DNA from: the human T2T-CHM13v2.0 reference genome, Homo sapiens
Assembly: GCF_009914755.1 (NCBI RefSeq)
Contig: NC_060931.1
DNA length: 64,000 bases
Strand: one strand, 5' to 3'
In this document: in pieces, positions 6,740 through 29,757 of the stretch
Layout: the number at the start of each line of letters is the position of its first letter
How positions within the stretch are numbered: the stretch's first letter is position 1
Position numbers and translations under genes: made by a program
Notes under the pieces: generated by a model
Seen by the model: only the letters and a program-made list of their open reading frames with translations
What the model was told of the DNA's origin: nothing
Databases searched by the model: none

Positions 6740-7560
6740 TTAAAAATAATTTCAACTGTTATTTTAAATTCAGAGGGTGCATGTGTAAGTTTGTTGCCTG
6801 GGTATATTGCACGATGTTGACGTTGGGGGTATGAATGATCCCATCACTCAGGTAGTGAGCATGGTACCCAATAGGTAGTTTTTCAATACTTGCCCCCATC
6901 TTCCTTCCACCCTCTAGTAATCCCCAGTGTCTATGGTTGCCATCTTTATGTCCATGTGAACCCAATGTTTATATCCCACTTACAAGTAAGAACATGTGCT
7001 ATTTGGTTTTCTGCTCCTGCATTAATTCACTTAGGTTGATGGTCTCCAGGTGCACCCATGTTGCTGCCAAGAACATGATTTCATTCTTTTTCATGGCTGC
7101 ATAGTATTCCATGGTGTTCCATGAATCTATATACCATATTCATTGTGGTATATATATATATATATATGTATGTATGTGTATATATGTGTGTATGTATACA
7201 TACAGATACACATATATACATGCGTATATACATATATACATATGTATCTGTATGTGTATATATATACACATACACACACACACACGTATATATCTGCATA
7301 TGTACACATGTATATACACACATATACACATATACATATATACATGCATATATACACATATGTATATCTGTATTTATATATACACATAGGCACACACATG
7401 TGTATATCTGTATATATACATGTGTGTATATACACACACACACCATGGTATACTATGCAAAAAGAATGAAATCATGGTGTGTATATATCACATTTTCTTT
7501 ATCCAGTCTACCATTGATGGGCACTTAAGTTGATTCCATGTCTTTGCTATTGTGAATAGT
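6740..7560 (-). mobile_element. L1PA/PB 3' end nested in older L1M, with (TA/CA/TG)n expansion at 7149-7441
   Basis: Reverse L1 3'UTR motifs; alternating purine-pyrimidine tract. Confidence 0.8.
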
Positions 7561-7800
7561 GTCACTTAGCATGTTTTCAAGGTTCATCCACATTGTAGCA
7601 CATATCAACACTCCATTCCTTTTTATGGCTTGACTAATAACAACTGTGTGTATAAAGCACATTTTGTTTATCCATTATTCAGCTGCTGGGCAGACATGTG
7701 GTTGCTTCCAACTTTTGGCTGTTGTGGAAAACATGGCTATGAACATTCATGTACAAACATTTCTCTGAATACTTGTTTTCAATTCTTTTGGGGGAATCTC

Positions 7801-8104
7801 TTTTTTTTTTTTTTTTTTTTTGAGATGGAGTCTTACTCTGTTGCCCAGGATGGAGTACAGTGGTGTGATCTCGGCTCACTGCAACCTCTGCATCCTGGGT
7901 TCAAGCGTTTCTCCTGCCTCAGCCTCCTGAGCAGCTGGGATTACAGGTGCTCACCACTGCACCCAGCTAATTTTTGTATTTTTTTAGTGGAGATGGGTTT
8001 CACCACGTTGGCCAGGTTGATCTTGGACTCCTGACCTCAGGTGATCTGCCCGCCTCGGCCTCCCAAAGCCCTGGGATTACAGGTGTGAGCCAGCTCACCT
8101 GGCC
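7801..8104 (-). mobile_element. AluS
   Basis: Reverse Alu with poly-T. Confidence 0.92.
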
Positions 8105-8340
8105 AAAGGCATCTCTTCTTAATACTGATGTCAGGAGCCTGCACCAGCTCCTTAACAAACACTTCACTAGGAGTTAGCATTATGTGGCTGAGGGATGTGG
8201 GAGTCAACTAGCATTGGCCTCAAATTCCAGCTCCGTGCTTATAACTTGTTCTCTGAGCCTGCCATTCCTCGGCTGTCCAGTGCAAAGAGGAAAGCTGTAA
8301 GGATTAGGGTTCCTGAACACAAAGTGTCTGCAGCATTTAC

Positions 8341-8377
<37 letters not shown>

Positions 8378-8389
8378 TTCTGTGTATGT

Positions 8390-8677
8390 TTTAGAGAGAC
8401 AAGGTCTTGTTCTGTTGCCCAGACTGGAGTGAGTACAGTGGCGTAGCTCACTGCAGCCTCGAATTCCTGGGCTGAGGCAATCCTCTGGTTTCAGCCTCCC
8501 AAGTAGCTGGAATTCTAGGCACCTGACACCATGCTAGACAATTTTTAAAATTTTTGTGTAGAGACGGGGTCTCCCTACATGGCCCAGGCTAGTCTCAAAC
8601 TCATGGCCTCAAGCAATCCTCCTGCCTCGGCCTCCCAAAGCGCTGGGATTACAAGCATGAGCCACCACGCTCAGCCG
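8390..8677 (-). mobile_element. AluJ preceded by (TG)n at 8344-8375
   Basis: Reverse Alu dimer. Confidence 0.88.
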
Positions 8678-14842: not shown

Positions 14843-15980
14843 TATAGTGTGTGTCCTTTTGTGTCTGGCTGATTCCACTTAGCATAATGTCCTCAGGGTT
14901 CGTCCATGTCGTTCCATGGATCAGAATTTCATTTCTTTTTATGGTGAATGGTGCTGCATTGTAGGGATAGGCCACATTTTTCTTATTCATTCCTCAGTGG
15001 ATGGACATTTGGGTAGTTTCCACTTCCTGGCTATCGTGACTAGTGCTGCTATGAATGTTTGGGCACATGTGTTTGTTTGAGTTCGTATTTTCAGTTCTCC
15101 AGGGCATAGCCCTAGGAGCGGAATTGCTGGATCACATAGAAATTCTGTGTCACTTTTTGAGAAACTGCCAAGCTCAGTCATCTGTTTTAATGGGCCCCCA
15201 ACGCCTTCTAGCAACTCTGATTTATTCTCATTTTACATATGAAGGAAAGCCAAGGTTCAGAAACATGTCCGAGGCCACAGCTCATAAAGAACCAGCCAAG
15301 ACAACAACCCAGATCTGTCTTAGGCCCACATCTGAGCTCTTTGCTCCTCCCAATGTCCCCAAGGCATGGCGTGGCTCTTTCTCTAGGTTGGACTGGGCCT
15401 GGTGCTGTGATCTCTGGGCTCCAGAGACAACTCTGTGCACAGTCCCATGTGACCTAGGACCTATCCCTCCTTCCAAATGACCCTTCCCTGAAGAAGAGGA
15501 CAGGACTTTGATTCTGGCCTCCCCTCTGCCTACAGCAGAGCTTGGAGATGGTCCCATGAGAGCTATGTCATGCTTGACCCAATGATCAGGTTACCAGCCT
15601 CGTCTCCTCTCCTTCTTCCCAGGACTTGGGAAAGGGTACCCTGGCTGTCTCACCAACTGAACTACTCTGACCTGAATCCACTGTTGTTCTCACTGTCCAG
15701 AAAACAGCCCTGGCCCATTTCCTTTACCTAGAGCCCACTGGGCACACTTACAGCCTTCCTACCTCTACCAGCAGCTCCCAGTCTCTCTCATCATGGGGCA
15801 GTGAAGGGGGACTTTGAGGTCAGGAACCTCCCACTAGGAGCATCAAGCCCAGTGGACGCAGGGCCCAAGGCCAGAGCTGTTGGGAGCCTGCAGAAATGAG
15901 AATAAAAAGAAGGCCGCAAAACTGAAATGCTATGAAACACTTAATAAAAGTTACAACTTCATTAATTAAACATTCTGGTT

Positions 15981-16477
15981 TGTTAAATACAATTAGGTTC
16001 CCTCTTCAAACAGCTTATCCAGTTTCCCTGTTCTCCATCCTATAATTCCAAACACCCCCTTGCCTTTGTTGCACCCCAACTTGTCTGAATATGCCTAGGC
16101 ATGCCTGAACTTGCTACAACCCCAGTCCACATTCCTTTCCTTATTAGGGAATAGGTTCCCTTCCTAGTACCCCCGTAAGTGACCCCCCTTCTGTCTCTTC
16201 TCACCCCCCTTATGTGCCAACCTTATCTAAGAAAGTTTAAATGTTTAGCCAATTGGGACTAATTTAGACTGTGGGGTCCAACCCTAGCCAACAGGGGAAA
16301 GACACAGCAGAAACTGTGTTAGAGATAATTAAAACCCCTGCTTTTCTTTGTTCTGGGTGCTCTCGCCGTTGGTGCATCTGTGAAACACACCCTCCTATGG
16401 GAGTAAATTGCCTTTCTGAGAGAATTTTTGTCTCAGTGCTGGTTCTTCTTTGCGGCACTGAGCATTTATTTCCAACA
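15981..16477 (+). mobile_element. 5' LTR (LTR10B-like)
   Basis: TGTTAAATAC...TTCCAACA; roughly 89% identical by eye to 29277-29748. Confidence 0.9.
16077..16116 (+). promoter_or_regulatory. p53 response element (4 tandem half-sites) in 5' LTR
   Basis: CAACTTGTCT GAATATGCCT AGGCATGCCT GAACTTGCTA vs RRRCWWGYYY. Confidence 0.75.
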
Positions 16478-16481
16478 AATT

Positions 16482-16499
16482 TAGTGGCCCATATGGGGA
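16482..16499 (+). other. Primer binding site, tRNA-Ile
   Basis: TAGTGGCCCATATGGGGA vs TGGTGGCCCGTACGGGGA (3 transitions, 2 at CpGs), just after the LTR. Confidence 0.85.
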
Positions 16500-16664
16500 A
16501 ACTAATCCTCCCCTGGGAAAGGGTCTCTGATCGCCTCTCGTGAGGAGACACGTCCCGCTGCCTTGTTGTGGCAGCCACAGTGTGATGAATAAACCTGGAC
16601 TGTCAGCAATGCAGGAAGAAAAGGCCTTCAGTTACTGGGGCAATCGGATAACTCTGTGCACAGA

Positions 16665-16871
16665 CCAAGGTAAGAAAGGCCATGGGAGCCGGCAAAGTAT
16701 TTCCTTGGTGGTCAGGACCAAGGCAAGAAAAGCTTCAGGGGCAGTGAAGTATTCTTTGGTTGGGATATACCAAGGCAAGAAAAGCCACCGGGGCGGTGAG
16801 GTATTCTTTGGTCAGGACACACCAAGGCAAGAAAAGCCGTGGGAGTCGTGAAGTATTCTTTGGTGGTCAGG
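16665..16871 (+). repeat. Four ~52-bp tandem repeats in the proviral leader
   Basis: CCAAGG(C/T)AAGAAA...GTATTC(T)TTGGT x4; first copy has AAG|GTAAGA splice-donor motif. Confidence 0.85.
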
Positions 16872-17050
16872 TTATCTTGGAGGTTGAAAGTGTGTGAAGG
16901 TGCAAGGAATCCCCAGTAGTGGGGTTGAGCCTCCAGGAAAAGGGGTACAAGACATGTCTAATATGAGAAATTGAGCCCCCATTAACCTCCAAGAGGGAGG
17001 TGCAAAAAAAATGTCTAATATGAGAGATTGAGCCCCCATTAACTTCCAGG

Positions 17051-17390
17051 ACGGGAAATATCCCTAGTAAAAGAAGAACTACAAAGGATCAAACACAAAA
17101 AAAAGCAACAGATAATAAAATATTGTTGTTTTATTTGGACCCAAGAACCAATCCTCAGATCCTCAGTTTTCTGGCCAAAGTTTGGGTCAAATAAGGAATA
17201 GATTTGTCAGCTTTTAGTAGAACATATTAATGACAAGAGTCCTTTCTCCCAGGAGGAAATAGATTAAGCCCTATGTTGGTAGTAGTGGCCTGACCCTCTT
17301 TACCTCCTAATGACTGCAGGAAGTAAGCCACAAGCCAACTCCTCTAAGCCGCCTAACACTCCTGACCCTAACCTCCCTCCCGCTCAGGCT
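17051..17390 (+). pseudogene. Truncated retroviral gag (MA/Pro-rich) remnant
   Basis: ACGGGAAAT (decayed ATG-Gly-Asn start), VFWPKFGS motif, stops, Pro-rich end. Confidence 0.65.
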
Positions 17391-17392
17391 GA

Positions 17393-17675
17393 AGCAGTCT
17401 GCCTGAGCTGCAGGGCCTGCCGGAGGTGCACAAACAGTGTGAGGGGAACCTCCCCTATGCTAGGAAACTCCCAGCCCAAAGGAGGGCATCCACAGTTTCC
17501 AGTGTTACTCAGGTAGAAGTTAATGAAAATGCTTACAAAAGTGGCTCTGGCATGCAGATGGCAGAGGACAGCAAGAGGGTAAGACACACCAGACACTGCC
17601 CGGCATCCAGAGAGTGAAGGACAAAGCCCAGTCTGGTGGCAAATGGAAAGTTTAGTGTAGAAAAGGCTCTGTGTG
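17393..17675 (+). pseudogene. NET1: NET1 (ARHGEF8) mRNA fragment: C-terminal coding region and stop
   Basis: PELQGLPEVHKQCEGNLPYARKLPAQRRASTVSSVTQVEVNENAYKSGSGMQMAEDSK/KTHQTLPGIQRVKDKAQSGGKWK/LV* matches the recalled NET1 C-terminus (...RRASTVSSVTQVEVDENAY...GGKRKETLV) with two frameshifts; TAG at 17658-17660. Confidence 0.85.
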
Positions 17676-18846
17676 GGACTTGCTGGCAAGATGGCCAAAT
17701 AGGAACAGCTCTAGTCTGCAGCTCCCAGTGAGATCAACACAGAAAGCGGGTGATTTCTGCATTTCCAAGTGAGGTACCCAGTTCATCTCAATGGGACTGG
17801 TTGGACAGTGGGTACAGCCCACGGAGGGTGAGACGAAGCAGGGTGAGGTGTCGCCTCACCTTGGAAGTGCAAGGGGTCGGGTGATTTCCCTTTCCTAGCC
17901 AAGGGAAGCTTTGAGAGACTGGATCAGGAGGAATAGTGCAATCCGGCCCAGATACTGCACTTTTCCCATGGTCTTCACAACTGGCAGACCAGGAGATTGC
18001 CTCCATAGCCTGTCTCAGCAGGTCCCACTCCCACGGAGCCCAGCAAGCTAAGGTCCACTGGCTTGAAATTCTCGCTGCTAGCACAGCAGTCTGAGGTCGA
18101 CCTGGGACACTCGAGCTTGGTGCGGGGAGGGCGTTCGCCATTGCTGAGGCTTAAGTAGGTGGTTTTACCCTCACAGTGTAAACAAAGCCCTGGGAAGTTC
18201 AAACCGGGCGGAGCCCACTGCAGCTCAACAAGGCGGCTGAAGGCACACTGCCTGTCTAGATTTCCTCCTCTCTGGGCAGGGGATCTCTGAAAAAAAGGCA
18301 GCAGCCCCAGTCTGGGACTTATAGATAAAACCCTTAGCTCCCTGGGACAGAGCACCTGGGGGAAGGGGCGGCTGTGGGCGCAGCTTCAGCAGACTTAAAC
18401 GTCCCTGCCTGACAGTTCTTAAGAGAGCAGTGGATCTCCCAGCACAGTGTTCAAGGTCTGATAAGGGACAGGCTGTCTTCTCAAGTGGGTCCCTGATCCC
18501 CGTGTATCCTGCCTGGGAGACACCTCCCAGTAGGGGCCAACAGACACATCATACAAAAGAGTTCTCGCTGACATCTGGTGGGCACCCCTCTTGGATGAAG
18601 CTTCCAGAGGAAGGAACAGGCAGCAATCTTTGCTATTCTGCAGCCTCCACTGGTGATACCTGGGAAAACAGGGTCTGGAGTGGACCTCTAGCAAACTCCA
18701 GCAGACCTGCAGAAGAGGGGCCTGTTAGAAGGAAAACTAACAAAACAGAAAAGAATAGTAGCAACATCAACAAAAAGGACGTCTACTCCGAGACCCCATC
18801 TGAAGGTCACCAACATCAAAGGCCAAAGGTAGATAAATCCACGAAG

Positions 18847-19869
18847 ATGGGGAGAAACCAGCGCAAAAAGGCTGAAAACTCCAAAAACCAGAACGCCTCT
18901 TCTCCTCCAAAGGATCACAACTCCTTGTCAGCAAGGGAACAAAACTGGATGGAGAATGAGTTTGACGAATTGACAGAAGTAGGCTTCCGAAGGTGGGTAA
19001 TAACAAACTCCTCTGAGCTAAAGGAGCATGTTCTAACCCAATCCAAGGAAGCTAAGAACCTTGAGAAAAGGTTAGACAAATTGCTAACTAGAATATCCAG
19101 TTTAGAGAAGAACATAAATGACCTGATGGAGCTGAAAAACACAGCACGAGAACTTCTTGAAGCATACACAAGTATCAATAGACGAATTGATCAAGTGGAA
19201 GAAAAGATACCAGAGATTGAAGATCAACTCAATGAAATAAAGCAAGAAAACAAGATTAGAGAAAAAAGAGTGAAAAGAAAGGAACAAAGCCTCCAAGAAA
19301 TATGGGACTATGTGAAAAGGCCAAATATACATTTGATTGCTGTTCCTGAAAGTGACGGGGAGAATGGAACCAAGTTGGAAAACACTCTTCAGGATATTAT
19401 CCAGGAGAACCTCCCCAACCTAGCAAGGCAGGCCAACATTCAAATTCAGGAAATACAGAGAACACCACAAAGATATTCCTCAAGAAGAGCAACCCCAAGA
19501 CATATAATCGTCAGATTCTCCAAGGTTGAAATGAAGGAAAAAATGTTAAGATCAGTCAGAGAGAAAGGTCAGGTTACCCACAAAGGGAAGCCCATCAGAC
19601 TAACAGCAGATCTCTTGGCAGAAACCCTACAAGCCAGAAGAGAGTGGGGGCCAATATTCAACATTCTTAAAAGAATTTTCAACCCAGAATTTCCTATCCA
19701 GCCAAACTAAGCTTCATAAGTGAAGGAGAAATAAAATCCTTTACAGACAAGAAAATGCTGAGAGATTTTGTCACCACCAGGCCTGCCTTACAAGAGCTCC
19801 TGAAGGAAGCACTAAACATGGAAAGGAATGACCGGTACCAGCCATGGCAAAAAACATGCCAAATTGTAA
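18847..19869 (+). pseudogene. L1 ORF1p, frameshifted near 19670
   Basis: MGRNQRKK...EIWDYVKRPN...TPRHIIVRF...ARREW then frame loss. Confidence 0.9.
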
Positions 19870-19931
19870 AGACCATTGACACCATGAAGAAACTGCATCT
19901 ACTAACGGGCAAAATAACCAGCTAGCGTCAT

Positions 19932-23737
<3,806 letters not shown>

Positions 23738-23972
23738 ACAATGAAAACACATGGACACAGGGAGGGGAACATCACACACTGGGGCCTGTCAGAGGGTGGG
23801 GGTAGGGGAGGGATAGCATTAGGAGAAATACCTAATGTAGATGACAGGTTGATGGGTGGAGCAAACTACCATGGCACATGTATACCTACGTAATAAATCT
23901 GCACATTCTGCACATGTACCCCAGAACTTAAAGTATAATAAAAAAAAAAAAAGAAAGAAAAGGCTCTGTGTG

Positions 23973-24930
23973 TTAACTGGTGGAAAGACTGTTTATAAAT
24001 GTATACAGTTTTGTTTTCTTGTAATAAAAGCCTCATAAGTTTACTTTATACCAGTTGTAACATTCTCATTTTTTTGGTTGTTCTTTTTTCTTTTTTTAAT
24101 GGCAGCTAAAGATATACAGATTACTGTTAAATTGCAGTCCTTTTTAAAAAAATATTTTCTTGAATTATTTAGAACATGCAAGCCTGGTATTTTTAATCAA
24201 ATAAAATATTTATAAAATAGGTGTTCTCTTATTCTGGATTCATCCTGGTTTTCTAATACCAATTGTAATATTTACAATATTCACCAAAACTTAGAATTTT
24301 GCAAATACTGGAATTCTACCAGTGCTTCTTTAATAAGCCTTGCATGTATAATTTGAAATTTTAACACTGGCACTCAAAATCTACATGAAATGTATGTTTA
24401 AAGTATTTCAAAATTTACATTGAAACATAACTTCATTAGAAAATAAACTATAAGCCTAAGTAGGTTTTTAATTTTATCAACTGGAATGCTATTAGTCGGT
24501 TTTTCACCATACATTCCTCATTTTACATTCATTTAACCTGTCAATTAATTTATTTTATTGTAGTTTTTAGCATTTGCTTTTTTTTAATGCTTTTTCAAAT
24601 TAGCAAGTCTTTATTTTTCTTTCTGATTAAAAATGTGTGTGTGTATATATATGTGTGTATATATGTGTATATATGTGTGTGTGTGCATATATATATATAC
24701 ACACACACATATATTTAATCACACCAACTTTACCAAGTAAAACCAAGCCACACTGATTTTAAGCCAATTAAGAAAACTGCCATTTTTAAAGTGTAGCATT
24801 TCAGGGTAAAGACCCATGAAATGACTTAGTGTATTCTAGACTACCAAAAGAAAACCACTTCAAAAATTTTGTTAAAAGTTTTAGTGTTGTCTGAAAAGCA
24901 AGAAGGAAAATGGTAGTAAAAGAAGAAGAG
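23973..24930 (+). pseudogene. NET1: Probable NET1 3'UTR continuation
   Basis: AT-rich non-retroviral sequence contiguous with the NET1 stop once the L1 and one TSD are removed; 3' boundary uncertain; no poly(A). Confidence 0.7.
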
Positions 24931-24974
24931 AGGAAAAGACAGCAGTTTTGTCTGGTTGTGCCAGACATTTCACA

Positions 24975-25470
24975 AGTGTAAAAGGAAATAGGAGAAGCTC
25001 AAAAGTATATGTAAGAAGAGAGGAAAGAGAAACTGGGAGAGATAGGAAGGGAGAAAGTGAGAAGGGAAATCAGAAAGAGAAAGGGGAGGAAACGGCAGAT
25101 GTGGAGAGCCAGAGAGAGAGAGAAAGAGGACGAGACTGAGCATGAGGGAGAGAGGAAACAGGGAGGGGGAGAGAGGAAACAGGGAGGGGGAGAGAGGAAA
25201 CAGGGAGGGGGAGAGAGGAAACAGGGAGGGGGAGAGAGGAAACGGGGGGGAGGGAGAGGGAGGGAGAGGGAGGGAGAGGGAGGGAGGGGGAGGGAGGGGG
25301 AGGGAGGGGGAGGGAGGGGGAGGGAGGGGGAGGGAGGGGAAGGGAGGGGGAGGGAGGGGGAGGGGAGGGAGGGAGCACGAGAGAGAGAGACAGACAGAGA
25401 GAGAGGGAGAGAAATGGGGGAGAGAGGGAGGGGGAGAGAGAGAAAATAAGATAAAGACTTAAGGAAGAGA
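24975..25470 (+). repeat. GA-rich tract with 21-bp (GGAGAGAGGAAACAGGGAGGG) and 10-bp (AGGGAGGGGG) tandem repeats
   Basis: Directly visible at 25147-25375. Confidence 0.9.
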
Positions 25471-25472
25471 CC

Positions 25473-26212
<740 letters not shown>

Positions 26213-26605
26213 CAGTCTGGCAATAAAAGATTTAGACAGAAACAGAAAGATTGGAGAGAGAGAGAGAGAGGAAGAGAATGAGAGACTGGAAGAAACAGAT
26301 TAAAGAGAGATACAGAAGGTGAATCTGGGGAGAGAGATAGTGTAAAAGGAAGAGAGAGGAAGAGACGAGACAGACAAAAAGCGCGAGCGAGAAGGTGAGA
26401 GAAATTAAGAACTATGAAAGACAGCAGCTAGGAGACAAAGGAGGCAGAAGACTGCCTGGGTGCCACAGCACCCACACCGTCCTCTTGCCCCCTGTCATTG
26501 CGACCCCAGAGCTGGTCCTTGATGGAGGAGAGCCGACCTCGCAGCAGCCTGAGCCTGGCCAGCAGCGCCTCCACCATCTCCCCGGTCAGCAGCCTAAGTC
26601 CCAAG
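26213..26605 (+). pseudogene. PLEKHA4: PLEKHA4 (PEPP1) mRNA 5' fragment: putative 5'UTR plus codons 1-28
   Basis: 26522-26605 translates to MEESRPRSSLSLASSASTISPVSSLSPK, 25/28 identical to the recalled PLEKHA4 N-terminus MEGSRPRSSLSLASSASTISSLSSLSPK; assigning the upstream GA-rich part to the UTR is inference. Confidence 0.82.
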
Positions 26606-27540
26606 CTATATGTAATACAGTTCTCAGAGTCTATGGAGGTATAAAAATTTATGCTTTGGCAAAACAAGTTACAGATAGTTGCCTAATATGTAAAAACAAA
26701 AACGAACAAAAAAACTAATAAGCAAACTCTAAGAAGGTCGCCCCTTAAAGGAAAGGACTCAGGATTAAGGCCGTTCCAAAGTGTCCAAATTGATTACACT
26801 GAAATGCCCCAAATAGGTCACCTAAAGTACCTACTAGTGATAGTAGATCACCTTACTCACTGGGTAGAGACTATTCCCTTTTCAAGTGCAACTGCCAGTA
26901 ATGTAGTGAAAGCATTAATTAAAAATATTCTACCCAGGTTTAGATGAATAGAAAATATTGATTCAGATAATAAGACTCATTTCACTGCACGTCATTAAGA
27001 AATTAGCCCAAGTACTAAACATAACATAGGAATACCATACTCCCTGGCACTCACCTTCGTCAGGAAGAGCATAGAGAATGAACCAAACTCTGAGGAGCCA
27101 CTTAAACAAATTAGTTTTAGAGACTCCTCCCCATTGCCTTGTTAAGAGTCAGGACCGCCCCTCGGAAAGATGTCAGCGTATCCCCTTATAAAATAATATG
27201 TAAGTTGCCTTATTTACACTCTACTGCTGACATTCCTACGTTGAAAACAAAAGATCAGTTTCTCAAAAACTATATACTTGGTCTATCTTCCACTTTCTCT
27301 TCCCTCAGAGCTGAAGACCGCCTTTTAGTACAGCTGCCACCCCTGGAGCTCCCAGCACACCTGCGTCAACCTGGAAATCACGTTCTGATTAAGAGCTGGA
27401 GAGAAGGAAAACTCGAACCGGCTTAGGAAGGACCCTACCTAGTGCTTCCAACTACTGAGACCACAGTATGAACAGCAGAAAGAGGGTGGACTCACCATAC
27501 TTGAGTCAAGAAAGTGCCACCATCTTTAGAGTCATAGACC
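26598..27540 (+). pseudogene. Retroviral integrase remnant
   Basis: QAICNTVLRVY...CLIC zinc finger, QIDYTEMP, LLVIVDHLTHWVE, YHTPWHSPSSG, EGPYLV motifs with stops. Confidence 0.88.
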
Positions 27541-27559
27541 ATTGTTCTAGGATCAAGTC

Positions 27560-29255
27560 CCAACAAACTAAAGCTAAGGAAAGTCTCACCCTCTTATATC
27601 TCTTTTATTGTCTCTGCTTCTTCCCTCACTCCACTGTCAGCGCCCCCCACCAAAACTATTGTGTTTGATGCTTAGCCATACCCTGTGGAGACCTACAAAG
27701 TCAAAGGCAACCAGCCTCTTCAGAAAAGTATCTTTGCCCTTAGTACTCACCCCACTCTCAACATAATCCTTGTAAAATTCCTTATCATTGGCTACCTTGC
27801 TATTCCCGGTATGATATTCTCTGGACCACTCAGTCCCAGGGCTAGGCTTCCTCAGAAGGCTGTACCTCCCTAAAACCTTACCTTCATTTTACTAAAGGAA
27901 CTACACCTGTTATTCCTATAACTAATGAGAAAACCAAGGTGTCCATTATAAAAGTAAAAGATCTAAAACAAACCCTAGCAATGGAGACAGGATACCGAAG
28001 TACAAATGCCTGGCTGGAATGGATTAAATATTCCATCCGCACCCTAAGCAAAAGCGACTGTTACACTTGTGTGCACGGTAGACCAGAGGCCCAGATCATC
28101 CCCTTTCAACTTAGTCTCCCCACTGACCAGGCACGAGCTGTAAGGTAGCTCTTTTTCAAGACCCCCACAGCCTGGGAAGACAAATCGGGCCAAGCTCTTT
28201 CTCTGCTGTTCCCAGAAGTTTCGACATCCTGTGGGTCAGGCCCCAAAGGCCATCCAGCCTCCGCCTTCCAATGCCAAGTTTACCTCATGTCTCTGATGAC
28301 AGGGAAGAAACGTAGCATTCCTTGGAGACTTAAAGGGATGCAAAGAGCTTAGGCCCTTCCAATAGCTTACCCATCAGTTTGCCCTTAGCCATCCCCAAGC
28401 GGATATATGGTGGTATTGTGGTGGACCCCTGCTGGACGCTCTGCCAAGCAAATGGAGCGAAACTTGTACTCTAATTCTATTGGCTATCTCTTTCACCCTC
28501 GTATTTCATCAACCTGAGAAAGTAAAAGCAAAGGTCTGTAAGCCGAGAGAGACCCCTTGTGAGTCTTTTGATCCTCAGGTTTATATAAATGCCATCGAGT
28601 TTCCATGAGGAGCACCAAATAAATTTAAAGCTCAAAACCAGTTAGTTGCAGAGTTTGAATTGCATTGTTCTGGTGGGTAACTATTAATAAAAATGTAAAT
28701 TAGATAAATTACATTGACTACAACCAGCAACGATTTGTTAACTATACCAAAGATGCCATTAAAGGAATAGCTGAACAATTAGGATTCACCAGTCAAATGG
28801 CCTGGGAAAATAGGATGGCATTAGCCATGATACTATCAGAGAAAGGTGACGTTTGTGTCGTGATTGGAACCCAGTATTGTACTTTCATCCCTAAAAACAC
28901 AGCCCCCAGTGGACAATCACAAAGGCCGTGTAGGGCCTTGCCTCTCTGTCAGATGAATTGGCTAAAAACTCCAGAATAGATGATCCCTTTACAAGCCTCA
29001 GGGGAAAGTGGTTCGGTGGGTGGAAAAAGCTAGTAACTTCAATAGTTACCTCCCTGGTAATTGTTGTAAGTGTACTAATTCTTGTTGGATGTTGCCTCAG
29101 ATCCTGTGCTCAAGGATGAATACAAAAACTCATTGAGACAACCCTCACTTTCCTCAATTCTCCCCCACTTTATTCAGATAAGCTCTTTCTTTCAGAAGAT
29201 CAAGCAGAACAACAAAGTTAAAACATGTTAGAAAGGTTTGAAGAGGAAAGATTAT
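27560..29255 (+). pseudogene. Retroviral env remnant
   Basis: NAWLEWIKYS...CYTC; TM heptad and ISD (WENRMALAMILSEKGDVC), CX6CC-like CVVIGTQYC, hydrophobic anchor. Confidence 0.88.
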
Positions 29256-29276
29256 AAAAATCAAAAGGGGTGAAAT

Positions 29277-29748
29277 TGTTAAATACAGTTAAGTTCTCTC
29301 TTTAAACAGCTTATCCAAATACCCCCTTGCCTTTGCTATACCCCAACTTGTCTGTACATGCCTAGGCATGCCTGAACTTGCTACAACCCCAGTCCACATT
29401 CCTTTCCTTATTAGGTAATAGGTTACCTTCCTAGTCCCCCTGTAAGTGACCCCCCTTCTCTCTCTTCTCACCCCTCTTACTTGCCTACCTTATATAAGAA
29501 AGTTTAACTGTTTAGCCAATAGGGACTAGTTTAGACTGTGGGTTCCAACCCTAGCCAACAGAGGAAAGACATAGAAGCAGAGGCTGTGTTAGAGATAATA
29601 AAAACCCATGGTTTCCTTTGTTCTGGGTACTCTCGCCATTGCTCCATTCACGAGATGCACCTTCCTATAGGAGCAAATTGCCTTGCTGAGAAATCCTTTG
29701 TCTCAGTGCTGGTTCTTCTTTGCAGCACTGAGCATTTTTTTTCCAACA
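29277..29748 (+). mobile_element. 3' LTR (LTR10B-like), preceded by PPT 29263-29276
   Basis: AAAAGGGGTGAAAT|TGTTAAATAC...TTCCAACA. Confidence 0.9.
29344..29383 (+). promoter_or_regulatory. p53 response element (4 tandem half-sites) in 3' LTR
   Basis: CAACTTGTCT GTACATGCCT AGGCATGCCT GAACTTGCTA; all four CWWG cores intact. Confidence 0.8.
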
Positions 29749-29757
29749 TGTTTATAA

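What the first reader, a model, noticed from the sequence alone, without database searches (positions are those of the whole stretch)
26213..26644. PLEKHA4 start codon and first 28 codons joined to integrase at a microhomology
ATG 26522 opens MEESRPRSSLSLASSASTISPVSSLSPK (PLEKHA4 N-terminus from memory). It passes into viral sequence at GTCCCAAG (26598-26605), which reads as S-P-K in the host frame and as the P/S-Q-A of the integrase zinc-finger region in another frame: a template-switch signature. The result is a 40-aa chimeric mini-ORF (26522-26644) below the ORF-track cutoff. The GA-rich tracts at 24975-25470 and 26220-26450 may be PLEKHA4 5'UTR (inference).
Basis: partly seen in the sequence, partly recalled or inferred. 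Interest (0 to 1): 0.82.

Follow-up and report, generated by a model that had tools for sequence, protein, structure and literature searches.

The report
Ancient retrovirus carrying PLEKHA4 and NET1 pieces
This is the fossil of a defective retrovirus that, tens of millions of years ago, swapped most of its own genes for pieces of two host messenger RNAs (PLEKHA4 and NET1) and then copied itself to at least three places in the genome, a rarely documented event in humans.

Summary
Window 26516-26605 is PLEKHA4 exon 2 (84 of 90 bases identical to the gene on chr19). It is joined precisely to exon 1 (25017-25474 and 26214-26515), with the 457-bp intron 1 missing, and it abuts a truncated integrase at 26605/26606 over a shared CAAG.

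It lies inside an LTR-bounded HERV-I-like provirus (15981-29748). Protease, reverse transcriptase and most of gag are replaced by spliced PLEKHA4 5' exons and a 1.3-kb piece of the last NET1 exon. RefSeq annotates that piece as a NET1 pseudogene.

Two more copies exist, on chr1 and chr19. Each has its own target-site duplication, and all three share the PLEKHA4/integrase junction. The chr19 copy lacks NET1, keeps more gag and has a different env/LTR subtype. At least 31 ordinary family copies lack the insert.

The direction of transfer is host to virus. All junctions show microhomology, as in reverse-transcriptase template switching. This junction also falls exactly on the exon 2 splice donor, so splicing into an intronic provirus is a live rival.

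An unrelated HERV-K-type lineage separately carries PLEKHA4 exon 1. I found no report of any of this in the papers searched. The mini-ORF is out of frame with integrase and probably meaningless.

The parts
15976..15980 (+). 5' copy of the 5-bp target-site duplication (TGGTT; the 3' copy TGTTT is at 29749-29753)
   Evidence: Read; 4 of 5 bases match. The chr1 copy (ATCAG/ATGAG) and the chr19 copy (ATAAA/ATAGA) also match at 4 of 5.
15981..16477 (+). 5' LTR (TG...CA)
   Evidence: 87.8% identical (410/467) to the 3' LTR, K2P 0.134. Colinear with both LTRs of the chr1 copy.
16478..17378 (+). Primer-binding site, leader and 5' end of gag
   Evidence: Window 17083-17348 matches about 38 dispersed family copies at 75-82%. 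The ordinary copy L050 stays alignable to about 17362.
17379..17675 (+). NET1 last-exon fragment, part 1 (C-terminal coding codons)
   Evidence: Window 17394-17675 matches C10:5460070-5460356 at 89%. RefSeq annotates 17379-17665 as a NET1 pseudogene exon. The chr1 copy has the same junction.
17676..23956 (+). Later near-full-length L1 insertion. This is the 'intron' of the annotated NET1 pseudogene.
   Evidence: ORF1- and ORF2-like frames are present, the poly(A) is at 23940-23952, and a 16-bp target duplication flanks it. It is absent from the chr1 copy and from the NET1 gene.
23957..24995 (+). NET1 last-exon fragment, part 2 (3'UTR)
   Evidence: Window 23956-25002 matches C10:5460340-5461405 at 83%, contiguous with part 1 in the gene. 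The NET1 gene sequence continues differently past the junction.
24996..25016 (+). Short gag remnant between NET1 and PLEKHA4
   Evidence: Aligns to gag of the ordinary copies L055 and L051 and to gag of the chr19 copy.
25017..25474 (+). PLEKHA4 exon 1, 5' part, with expanded GA/GGGA tandem repeats
   Evidence: Matches C19:51863478 downstream at 81-94%. The repeat expansion is shown.
25475..26212 (+). Duplicate of an env segment (equivalent to 27848-28325) inserted in PLEKHA4 exon 1. It is itself split by an Alu (25491-25757, target duplication GGCTGT). Found in the chr7 copy only.
   Evidence: 89.4% (406/454) identical to the resident env, similar to the LTR-LTR identity. Absent from the chr1 copy and from the gene.
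26214..26515 (+). PLEKHA4 exon 1, 3' part, ending at the exon 1 splice donor position
   Evidence: 80.8% over 334 columns to C19:51863275-51862944. The gene has GTAAGT immediately after.
26516..26605 (+). PLEKHA4 exon 2, complete (90 nt), with the start codon at 26522
   Evidence: 84 of 90 identical to the gene. The gene has ...CAG before it and GTTTGAG after it.
26522..26644 (+). 40-codon chimeric ORF: 28 PLEKHA4 codons plus 12 out-of-frame integrase codons
   Evidence: Also open in the chr1 copy. The start codon is ATA in the chr19 copy.
26602..26605 (+). CAAG shared by the PLEKHA4 exon 2 end and the integrase: the junction microhomology
   Evidence: Alignment of the gene, the 3 chimeric copies and 2 ordinary copies. 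In one search, 31 rows for ordinary copies start at query 82-86.
26606..27440 (+). Integrase remnant, lacking the H..H half of its zinc finger and carrying several stops
   Evidence: Pfam rve matches 26768-26932 at E=5.9e-7 (30.1 bits, below the 32.6-bit cut-off). Alignment to ordinary copies.
27540..29120 (+). env remnant in many broken frames
   Evidence: ORFs include a membrane-anchor-like frame at 28934-29119. Colinear with env of the chr1 copy at 84.7%. No Pfam hit.
29277..29748 (+). 3' LTR, preceded by a purine tract at 29256-29276

Best explanation
The finding is one junction of a transducing, replication-defective HERV-I-like (gammaretrovirus-like) provirus.

In an anthropoid ancestor, a spliced PLEKHA4 mRNA was present in a virus particle. 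During minus-strand DNA synthesis, reverse transcriptase copied env and integrase from 3' to 5'. At a CAAG in the integrase zinc-finger region it switched to the CAAG that ends PLEKHA4 exon 2. It then copied exon 2 and exon 1 to near the cap and switched back into a purine-rich stretch of gag.

The product had the order LTR, partial gag, PLEKHA4 exons 1-2, truncated integrase, env, LTR. It lacked protease and reverse transcriptase, so it could spread only with proteins supplied by intact relatives.

Further switches put a NET1 last-exon piece in place of most of gag (chr7 and chr1 form). They also exchanged env and LTR with another subtype (chr19 form) and duplicated an env piece into the chr7 copy.

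The element integrated at least three times and then decayed. The 40-codon ORF is a by-product with no likely function.

Shown: the anatomy, the direction of transfer, three independent integrations, and microhomology at every junction. Inferred: packaging of the host mRNA, the order of switches, and trans-complementation.
For: Host origin and intron loss:
- Exon 1 and exon 2 are joined exactly where the gene has GTAAGT...CAG.
- The gene is identified as PLEKHA4 by PDB 1upq.

The stretch lies inside an LTR element:
- The LTR pairs are 87.8% (chr7), 90.2% (chr1) and 83.6% (chr19) identical.
- Each copy has its own 5-bp flanking repeat matching at 4 of 5.
- There is no non-Alu similarity outside the LTRs.

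One origin for this junction:
- All three copies have the identical PLEKHA4/integrase join.
- In exon 2 they share 4 differences from the gene.

The insert is not part of the family:
- In one search, only C7, C1 and C19:9.84M start at query position 1.
- 31 rows start at query 82-86. That call scored 40 of 129 candidates and returned 43 rows.

Microhomology at every junction:
- CAAG at this junction.
- CAA plus imperfect flanks at NET1 to gag.
- (A/C)AG at gag to PLEKHA4 in the chr7/chr1 form.
- About 20 nt of roughly 70% purine-rich similarity at gag to PLEKHA4 in the chr19 form.
- 8-13 nt at the HERV-K-type junction.

Recombination between subtypes:
- chr19 is 83-92% identical to chr7/chr1 through PLEKHA4 and integrase.
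- It drops to 54-79% from window 27417 onward.

This matches the pattern that Tan et al. 2016 describe for LTR-mediated retrocopies (PMC5131818; I read passages and Supplemental Table 8).
Against: The host part ends exactly on the last base of exon 2, next to the gene's GT donor. A template switch has no reason to land there. I estimate about 1% per junction, or roughly 5-10% after allowing for the 8 host-side breakpoints I examined (my arithmetic, not a tool result).

CAAG is only 4 nt.

Packaging of PLEKHA4 mRNA is assumed, not shown.

Pfam recognised only the integrase core, below its cut-off, and none of the 10 other translated frames, including the env frames.

The family name rests on a recalled tRNA-Ile-like primer-binding site. 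I tried to test this and failed.
Confidence: 0.55

Rival explanations
1. The transduction is the same, but this particular junction was made by splicing.

In this reading a HERV-I provirus sat in sense orientation in PLEKHA4 intron 2. Transcripts from the PLEKHA4 promoter spliced exon 1 to exon 2, and exon 2 to a cryptic acceptor (..CAAG|CT) in integrase, and ended in the 3' LTR.

That chimeric RNA was packaged. The 5' viral half (LTR, leader, gag) was regained by template switching near the cap.
For: The host part ends exactly at the exon 2 donor, and the whole of exon 2 is present (90 of 90 positions).

Both ordinary copies I aligned have AG immediately before the point where the chimeric copies begin their viral part.

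The two independent 5' junctions differ between the chr7/chr1 form and the chr19 form, while the 3' junction is shared. That fits a fixed chimeric RNA that recombined more than once at its 5' side.
Against: The putative acceptor is poor. It is AAG rather than CAG or TAG, and the 20 nt upstream are purine-rich (read by eye; no splice-site scoring tool was available).

The extra CA match upstream of the AG is not required by splicing.

No LTR or internal sequence of this family lies in the 10 kb around PLEKHA4 exon 2 in this genome. In one search the only non-Alu hits there are the exons themselves.

The seven other junctions I examined, in this lineage and in the HERV-K-type lineage, are ordinary microhomology joins.
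Confidence: 0.35
2. The transfer went the other way: PLEKHA4 exon 1 and/or exon 2 descend from an ERV fragment, and the ERV copies simply show the native viral sequence.
For: Exon 1 is purine-rich and resembles the charged, purine-rich end of gag.

Exon 1-like sequence occurs in about 20 other loci.
Against: The ERV copies have exons 1 and 2 joined with the intron precisely absent.

31 rows for ordinary HERV-I copies and 19 rows for ordinary HERV-K-type copies lack the sequence.

The roughly 20 other loci reduce to two proviral insertions, one of which was amplified by segmental duplication.

The exon 2 coding sequence continues into the PH domain exons of the gene.
Confidence: 0.02
3. Host cDNA pieces were inserted by L1 into a provirus that was already integrated, as ordinary processed pseudogenes. 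That locus was then copied by DNA-level duplication.
For: RefSeq curates 17379-25002 as a NET1 pseudogene.

L1 and Alu insertions did hit this locus.
Against: Neither the NET1 piece nor the PLEKHA4 piece has a poly(A) tail or flanking target duplication.

The host pieces replace viral sequence rather than interrupting it.

Similarity between the copies stops at the LTR ends, and each copy has its own 5-bp duplication.

The chr19 form differs in its 5' junction and in its env/LTR subtype.
Confidence: 0.03

Closest known systems
FAM8A1 transduced by HERV-K14 (Jamain et al. 2001, recalled and seen cited in PMC5131818) and the human LTR-mediated retrocopies of Tan et al. 2016
   Same: Host mRNA sequence sits inside an LTR-bounded ERV, there is microsimilarity at the fusion points, there are no L1 hallmarks, and there is more than one genomic copy. 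Supplemental Table 8 lists FAM8A1 twice in HERVK14 and one other gene in MER4.
   Different: The ERV class is different (HERV-I-like, gamma-type). Two host genes are in one element. Only 5' non-coding and first-coding exons, or a 3' exon piece, were taken rather than a near-whole cDNA. The divergence is greater (LTR K2P 0.11-0.19). It is not in that paper's list, which was limited to young retrocopies.
Acutely transforming retroviruses carrying v-onc genes (established textbook knowledge, recalled)
   Same: Viral replication genes are replaced by host sequence, the genome is defective and needs a helper, non-homologous junctions have short microhomology, and spliced host sequence is present.
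   Different: No functional host domain is carried. There are 28 PLEKHA4 codons out of frame with integrase. From NET1, by eye against the gene sequence, there is only the C-terminal tail plus 3'UTR of the last exon, not the catalytic domains. The element also entered the germ line and was fixed.
L1-made processed pseudogene (the present RefSeq label of 17379-25002)
   Same: It is an intron-free copy of part of an mRNA at a new locus.
   Different: There is no poly(A) tail and no target duplication around the NET1 piece. The piece starts and ends inside the last exon. It is flanked by gag sequence on both sides and copied together with the LTRs to chr1.

Membership tests
LTR-mediated retrocopy / retroviral transduction (criteria as in Tan et al. 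2016, PMC5131818) | Host sequence is internal to an LTR element, with viral sequence and LTRs on both sides | tested here: met
   The LTRs are at 15981-16477 and 29277-29748, with gag upstream and integrase-env downstream.
LTR-mediated retrocopy / retroviral transduction (criteria as in Tan et al. 2016, PMC5131818) | Derived from RNA: introns are absent | tested here: met
   PLEKHA4 intron 1 (457 bp, GT..AG) is precisely missing in all 3 copies. NET1 cannot be tested in this way, because its piece lies within one exon.
LTR-mediated retrocopy / retroviral transduction (criteria as in Tan et al. 2016, PMC5131818) | Short microsimilarity at the fusion points | tested here: met
   CAAG at this junction, and 3 to about 20 nt at the others.
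LTR-mediated retrocopy / retroviral transduction (criteria as in Tan et al. 2016, PMC5131818) | No L1 hallmarks around the host piece | tested here: met
   There is no poly(A) tail or target duplication at the ends of the PLEKHA4 or NET1 pieces.
LTR-mediated retrocopy / retroviral transduction (criteria as in Tan et al. 2016, PMC5131818) | Later mobilisation as a unit: the same structure at several insertion sites | tested here: met
   Copies on chr7, chr1 and chr19 have distinct flanks and their own 5-bp duplications.
HERV-I / HERVIP group (class I, gamma-like) | Primer-binding site complementary to tRNA-Ile | tested here: inconclusive
   The sequence after the 5' LTR in all 3 copies looks Ile-type from recall only. 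To compare it with a genomic tRNA-Ile I fetched 9 tRNA loci, and all were tRNA-Thr.
HERV-I / HERVIP group (class I, gamma-like) | Similarity to a dispersed family of proviruses with gag, pol and env in gamma-type order | tested here: met
   About 38 loci match the leader/gag start. At least 31 rows match integrase at 75-81%. One zinc knuckle is present in gag. No Repbase or Dfam model was available to name the subfamily.
HERV-I / HERVIP group (class I, gamma-like) | Retroviral integrase domain | tested here: inconclusive
   Pfam rve E=5.9e-7, 30.1 bits, below the 32.6-bit cut-off; this is a decayed fragment.
Oncogene-carrying acute transforming retrovirus | An expressed, functional host protein domain is fused to or replaces viral genes | tested here: not met
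   The PLEKHA4 part is 28 codons, out of frame with integrase, and stops after 12 more codons. The NET1 part is the C-terminal tail and 3'UTR of the last exon only.
L1-processed pseudogene (current annotation of the NET1 piece) | 3' poly(A) tail and flanking target-site duplication | tested here: not met
   The NET1 similarity ends inside the 3'UTR and runs straight into gag and then PLEKHA4 sequence. The only poly(A) and duplication belong to the L1 inserted within it.

The most novel reading that the evidence does not exclude
The purine-rich 5' leader of PLEKHA4 mRNA may be a preferred substrate for retroviral capture. It was taken up by two unrelated retrovirus lineages, a gamma-like HERV-I and a beta-like HERV-K type.

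The proposed reason is that its roughly 450-nt GA-rich tract mimics viral purine-rich packaging or polypurine signals and the charged-region coding sequence of gag. That would favour its packaging and homeologous template switching. It may even have helped defective genomes that carried it to be mobilised.

If so, these fossils would point to a sequence rule for which host RNAs retroviruses transduce.
Probability: 0.15. Interest if true: 0.75.

Novelty: new member of a known kind. Interest (0 to 1): 0.55.

Why it matters
Documented host-gene transductions by human endogenous retroviruses are very few. Tan et al. 2016 list three loci from two genes. This adds a well-resolved case with two host genes in one element, three integrations, and visible recombination between subtypes.

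It also shows that a curated 'NET1 pseudogene' is a passenger of a provirus rather than an L1 retrocopy.

The copies preserve old states of the PLEKHA4 5'UTR. One example is an 8-nt stretch present in copies from both ERV lineages but absent from today's gene.

The exact exon-end junction offers a concrete test of two capture routes: read-in splicing versus template switching.

The second, independent ERV lineage with PLEKHA4 exon 1 raises a testable question about which host RNAs are prone to capture.

There is no sign of a present-day function for the 40-aa ORF.

Tried and rejected
- Pfam on 11 translated frames gave only a sub-threshold integrase hit; the env and gag frames gave nothing. 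An earlier try failed because one frame contained stops, and I dropped that frame.

- PBS typing was abandoned. An Rfam tRNA search of the genome listed 63 hits, but its loci could not be cut out. The 9 small stretches I then fetched were all tRNA-Thr.

- Literature searches found no report of this transduction:
  - PLEKHA4 with 'endogenous retrovirus' or HERV: 3 and 5 papers, from their titles and abstract openings in the search listings, none about transduction (not opened).
  - NET1P1: 0 papers.
  - HERV, transduction, cellular gene, NET1.
  - HERVIP10, host gene, captured.
  - A six-term transduction search.
  - Vargiu et al. 2016, PMC4724089, passages only: no mention of transduction.
  - The PDF and .doc supplements of PMC5131818 could not be read.

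- NET1 as an oncogene capture: rejected, because only the last-exon tail and 3'UTR are carried.

- The window 22908-23958 / chr1 similarity as part of the element: rejected. It is the 3' end of independent L1 insertions at different positions.

- Splice-site scoring: no tool was available, so the acceptor quality is judged by eye.

Full report

A search of the window's own genome with 26440-26660 returned 25 scored matches:
- the window itself;
- two full-length matches, C1:186988358-186988578 (89%) and C19:9844745-9844964 (88%);
- two pieces on the minus strand of chr19: window 26517-26605 against C19:51862398-51862486 (94%), and window 26440-26515 against C19:51862944-51863020 (90%);
- 17 loci matching only the first 58 bases;
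- 3 loci matching only from query 161-164 onward.

The chr19 locus at 51.86 Mb is PLEKHA4. The next exon downstream translates to a peptide that matches PDB 1upq_A, PEPP1 / pleckstrin homology domain-containing family A member 4, at E=5e-8.

**Exon structure.** In the gene, the first piece ends ...CAGAGCTGG followed by GTAAGT. The second piece begins after ...CCCCCAG, contains the ATG, and ends ...GCCCCAAG followed by GTTTGAG.

So window 26516-26605 is the complete 90-nt exon 2, 84 of 90 identical. It is joined to exon 1 exactly at the splice junction, with the 457-bp intron missing. The host sequence stops on the last base of exon 2.

The GA-rich tracts are exon 1. Window 25017-25474 and 26214-26515 are colinear with C19:51863478-51862944. 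The first part has been expanded by tandem repeats.

**Junction.** I aligned the gene, the three chimeric copies and two ordinary family copies. The ordinary integrase reads ..CCT(C/T)AAG|CTATATG.., which is P-Q-A-I-C between the H..H and C..C halves of the zinc finger. The gene reads ..GCCCCAAG|GT.

The strictly shared letters are CAAG (26602-26605). The PLEKHA4 frame is out of register with integrase, so the mini-ORF stops after 12 codons. It is also open in the chr1 copy. The chr19 copy has ATA at the start.

**The whole element.** The finding lies in a provirus bounded by LTRs at 15981-16477 and 29277-29748. The LTRs are 87.8% identical, K2P 0.134. The element is flanked by TGGTT/TGTTT.

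From 5' to 3' it contains:
- primer-binding site, leader and the start of gag, to about 17378; window 17083-17348 matches about 38 dispersed loci;
- a piece of the last NET1 exon, 17379-17675 plus 23957-24995, which is contiguous in the gene at C10:5460070-5461405;
- a later, nearly full-length L1 that splits the NET1 piece, with poly(A) and a 16-bp target duplication;
- about 20 nt of gag;
- PLEKHA4 exon 1, interrupted only in this copy by a 0.5-kb duplicate of env that later received an Alu;
- PLEKHA4 exon 2;
- a 5'-truncated integrase (Pfam rve, E=5.9e-7, below cut-off);
- env, then the 3' LTR.

Protease, reverse transcriptase and most of gag are absent. RefSeq's 'NET1 pseudogene' is therefore cargo of the provirus, and its 'intron' is the L1.

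**Other copies.** The chr1 copy (LTRs 90.2% identical, flanks ATCAG/ATGAG) has the same order. It includes both NET1 junctions but lacks the env duplicate and this L1.

The chr19:9.84 Mb copy (LTRs 83.6% identical, flanks ATAAA/ATAGA) differs in several ways:
- It lacks NET1.
- It keeps gag through a zinc knuckle and enters PLEKHA4 exon 1 about 85 nt further in, across roughly 20 nt of imperfect purine-rich similarity.
- It carries a younger HERV-K-type provirus and two Alus as later insertions.
- It is 83-92% identical to the other two through PLEKHA4 and integrase, but only 54-79% identical from window 27417 onward. Its env and LTRs therefore come from another subtype.

No non-Alu similarity extends beyond the LTRs. 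The three copies share the identical PLEKHA4/integrase junction and four exon 2 differences from the gene.

A search with window 26517-27100 scored 40 of 129 candidates and returned 43 rows. Only these three loci start at query position 1. 31 rows start at query 82-86, which are ordinary copies without PLEKHA4. 9 rows start further in.

**Direction and mechanism.** Three facts put the transfer from host mRNA to virus: the intron loss, the absence of the insert from ordinary copies, and the continuity of exon 2 with the gene's coding exons.

Every junction has short similarity between the partners. This is the pattern of reverse-transcriptase template switching described for LTR-mediated retrocopies (PMC5131818, passages and Supplemental Table 8).

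The env duplicate is 89.4% identical to the resident env, close to the LTR-LTR value. It probably arose in the same round of reverse transcription that made this copy (inference).

By LTR divergence, the chr19 form integrated first. It holds less of exon 1 than the chr7/chr1 form. Both forms must therefore descend from an unsampled progenitor, or from repeated recombination at the 5' side (inference).

**The open point.** This junction coincides exactly with the exon 2 donor.
- A template switch would land there by chance at roughly 1% per junction, or 5-10% over the 8 host-side breakpoints I examined (my estimate).
- Splicing of exon 2 into a provirus in intron 2 would give it automatically.
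- However, the acceptor would be a poor AAG with a purine-rich upstream tract (by eye), and no trace of the family lies within the 10 kb around exon 2.
- I put template switching at 0.55 and splicing at 0.35.

**Second lineage.** The 17 loci matching only the start of the query are not HERV-I.

A chr14 provirus has a Lys-like primer site as recalled, two gag zinc knuckles, a YVDD reverse transcriptase, and LTRs 94.6% identical. It carries PLEKHA4 exon 1 from C19:51863489 to 51862968, directly after its reverse transcriptase.

Sixteen copies that are 93-100% identical, in duplicated clusters on chr8, chr4, chr11 and chr3, carry a shorter exon 1 piece between the integrase end and the env C-terminus. 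19 family rows match only the downstream viral part.

Their 3' junction lies 13 nt before the exon 1 donor, over an 8-13-nt shared stretch. They extend 16 nt further 5' than the chr7 form. They therefore do not derive from the sampled HERV-I chimeras.

An 8-nt stretch is present in the chr7, chr14 and chr8 copies but absent from today's gene. Either the gene lost it later, or the two lineages share a source. I could not polarise this without other primate genomes.

**What is known.** In the searched library I found no paper linking PLEKHA4 or NET1 to ERV transduction. Vargiu et al. 2016 does not mention transduction in the passages searched. Tan et al. 2016 list only FAM8A1 (twice, in HERVK14) and one gene in MER4 for human.

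**Verdict.** Present function is unlikely.

Noticed in passing
L057/L058 (C14:18164001-18184000, minus strand) and L059/L060 (C8:12298001-12318000); also C8, C4, C11 and C3 loci: A HERV-K-type (beta-like) provirus lineage carries PLEKHA4 exon 1 without exon 2. There is one copy on chr14, and one insertion amplified to 16 copies (93-100% identical) in segmental-duplication clusters. Its junctions differ from those of the HERV-I chimeras, and its 3' junction lies over an 8-13-nt shared stretch.
   Followed up: partly
window 25090-25130, and alignment: An 8-nt stretch is present in the chr7 HERV-I copy and in the chr14 and chr8 HERV-K-type copies, but is missing from the present PLEKHA4 gene. Either the gene lost it after the captures, or the ERV-borne copies share a source.
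   Followed up: no
window 17379-25002: RefSeq's curated NET1 pseudogene (LOC100967223) is a last-exon fragment carried inside the provirus. Its 'intron' is a near-full-length L1 (17676-23956) with a 16-bp target duplication. The chr1 copy holds the same NET1 piece.
   Followed up: yes
window 15633-17126: Three RefSeq 'enhancer' features (15633-16832, 16125-16625, 16626-17126) overlap the 5' LTR and leader of this provirus.
   Followed up: no
window 25144-25375: Tandem expansion inside the captured PLEKHA4 exon 1: about four 21-nt units followed by about thirteen 10-nt GGGAGGGAGG-type units. It more than doubles the length of this part relative to the gene and to the chr1 copy.
   Followed up: partly
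L030:3654-10000 / L031:1-111 (C19:9837654-9844111): A younger HERV-K-type provirus (LTRs 92.8% identical, 6.4 kb, antisense) is inserted in the PLEKHA4 exon 1 part of the chr19 chimeric copy. A further HERV-I-like fragment lies about 13 kb upstream (chr19 concatenated coordinates 6973-8509).
   Followed up: no
C18:51637869-51639233: A separate, more diverged (69-76%) match to the NET1 last exon on chr18, not associated with this ERV in the search. It may be a paralogue or an older retrocopy.
   Followed up: no
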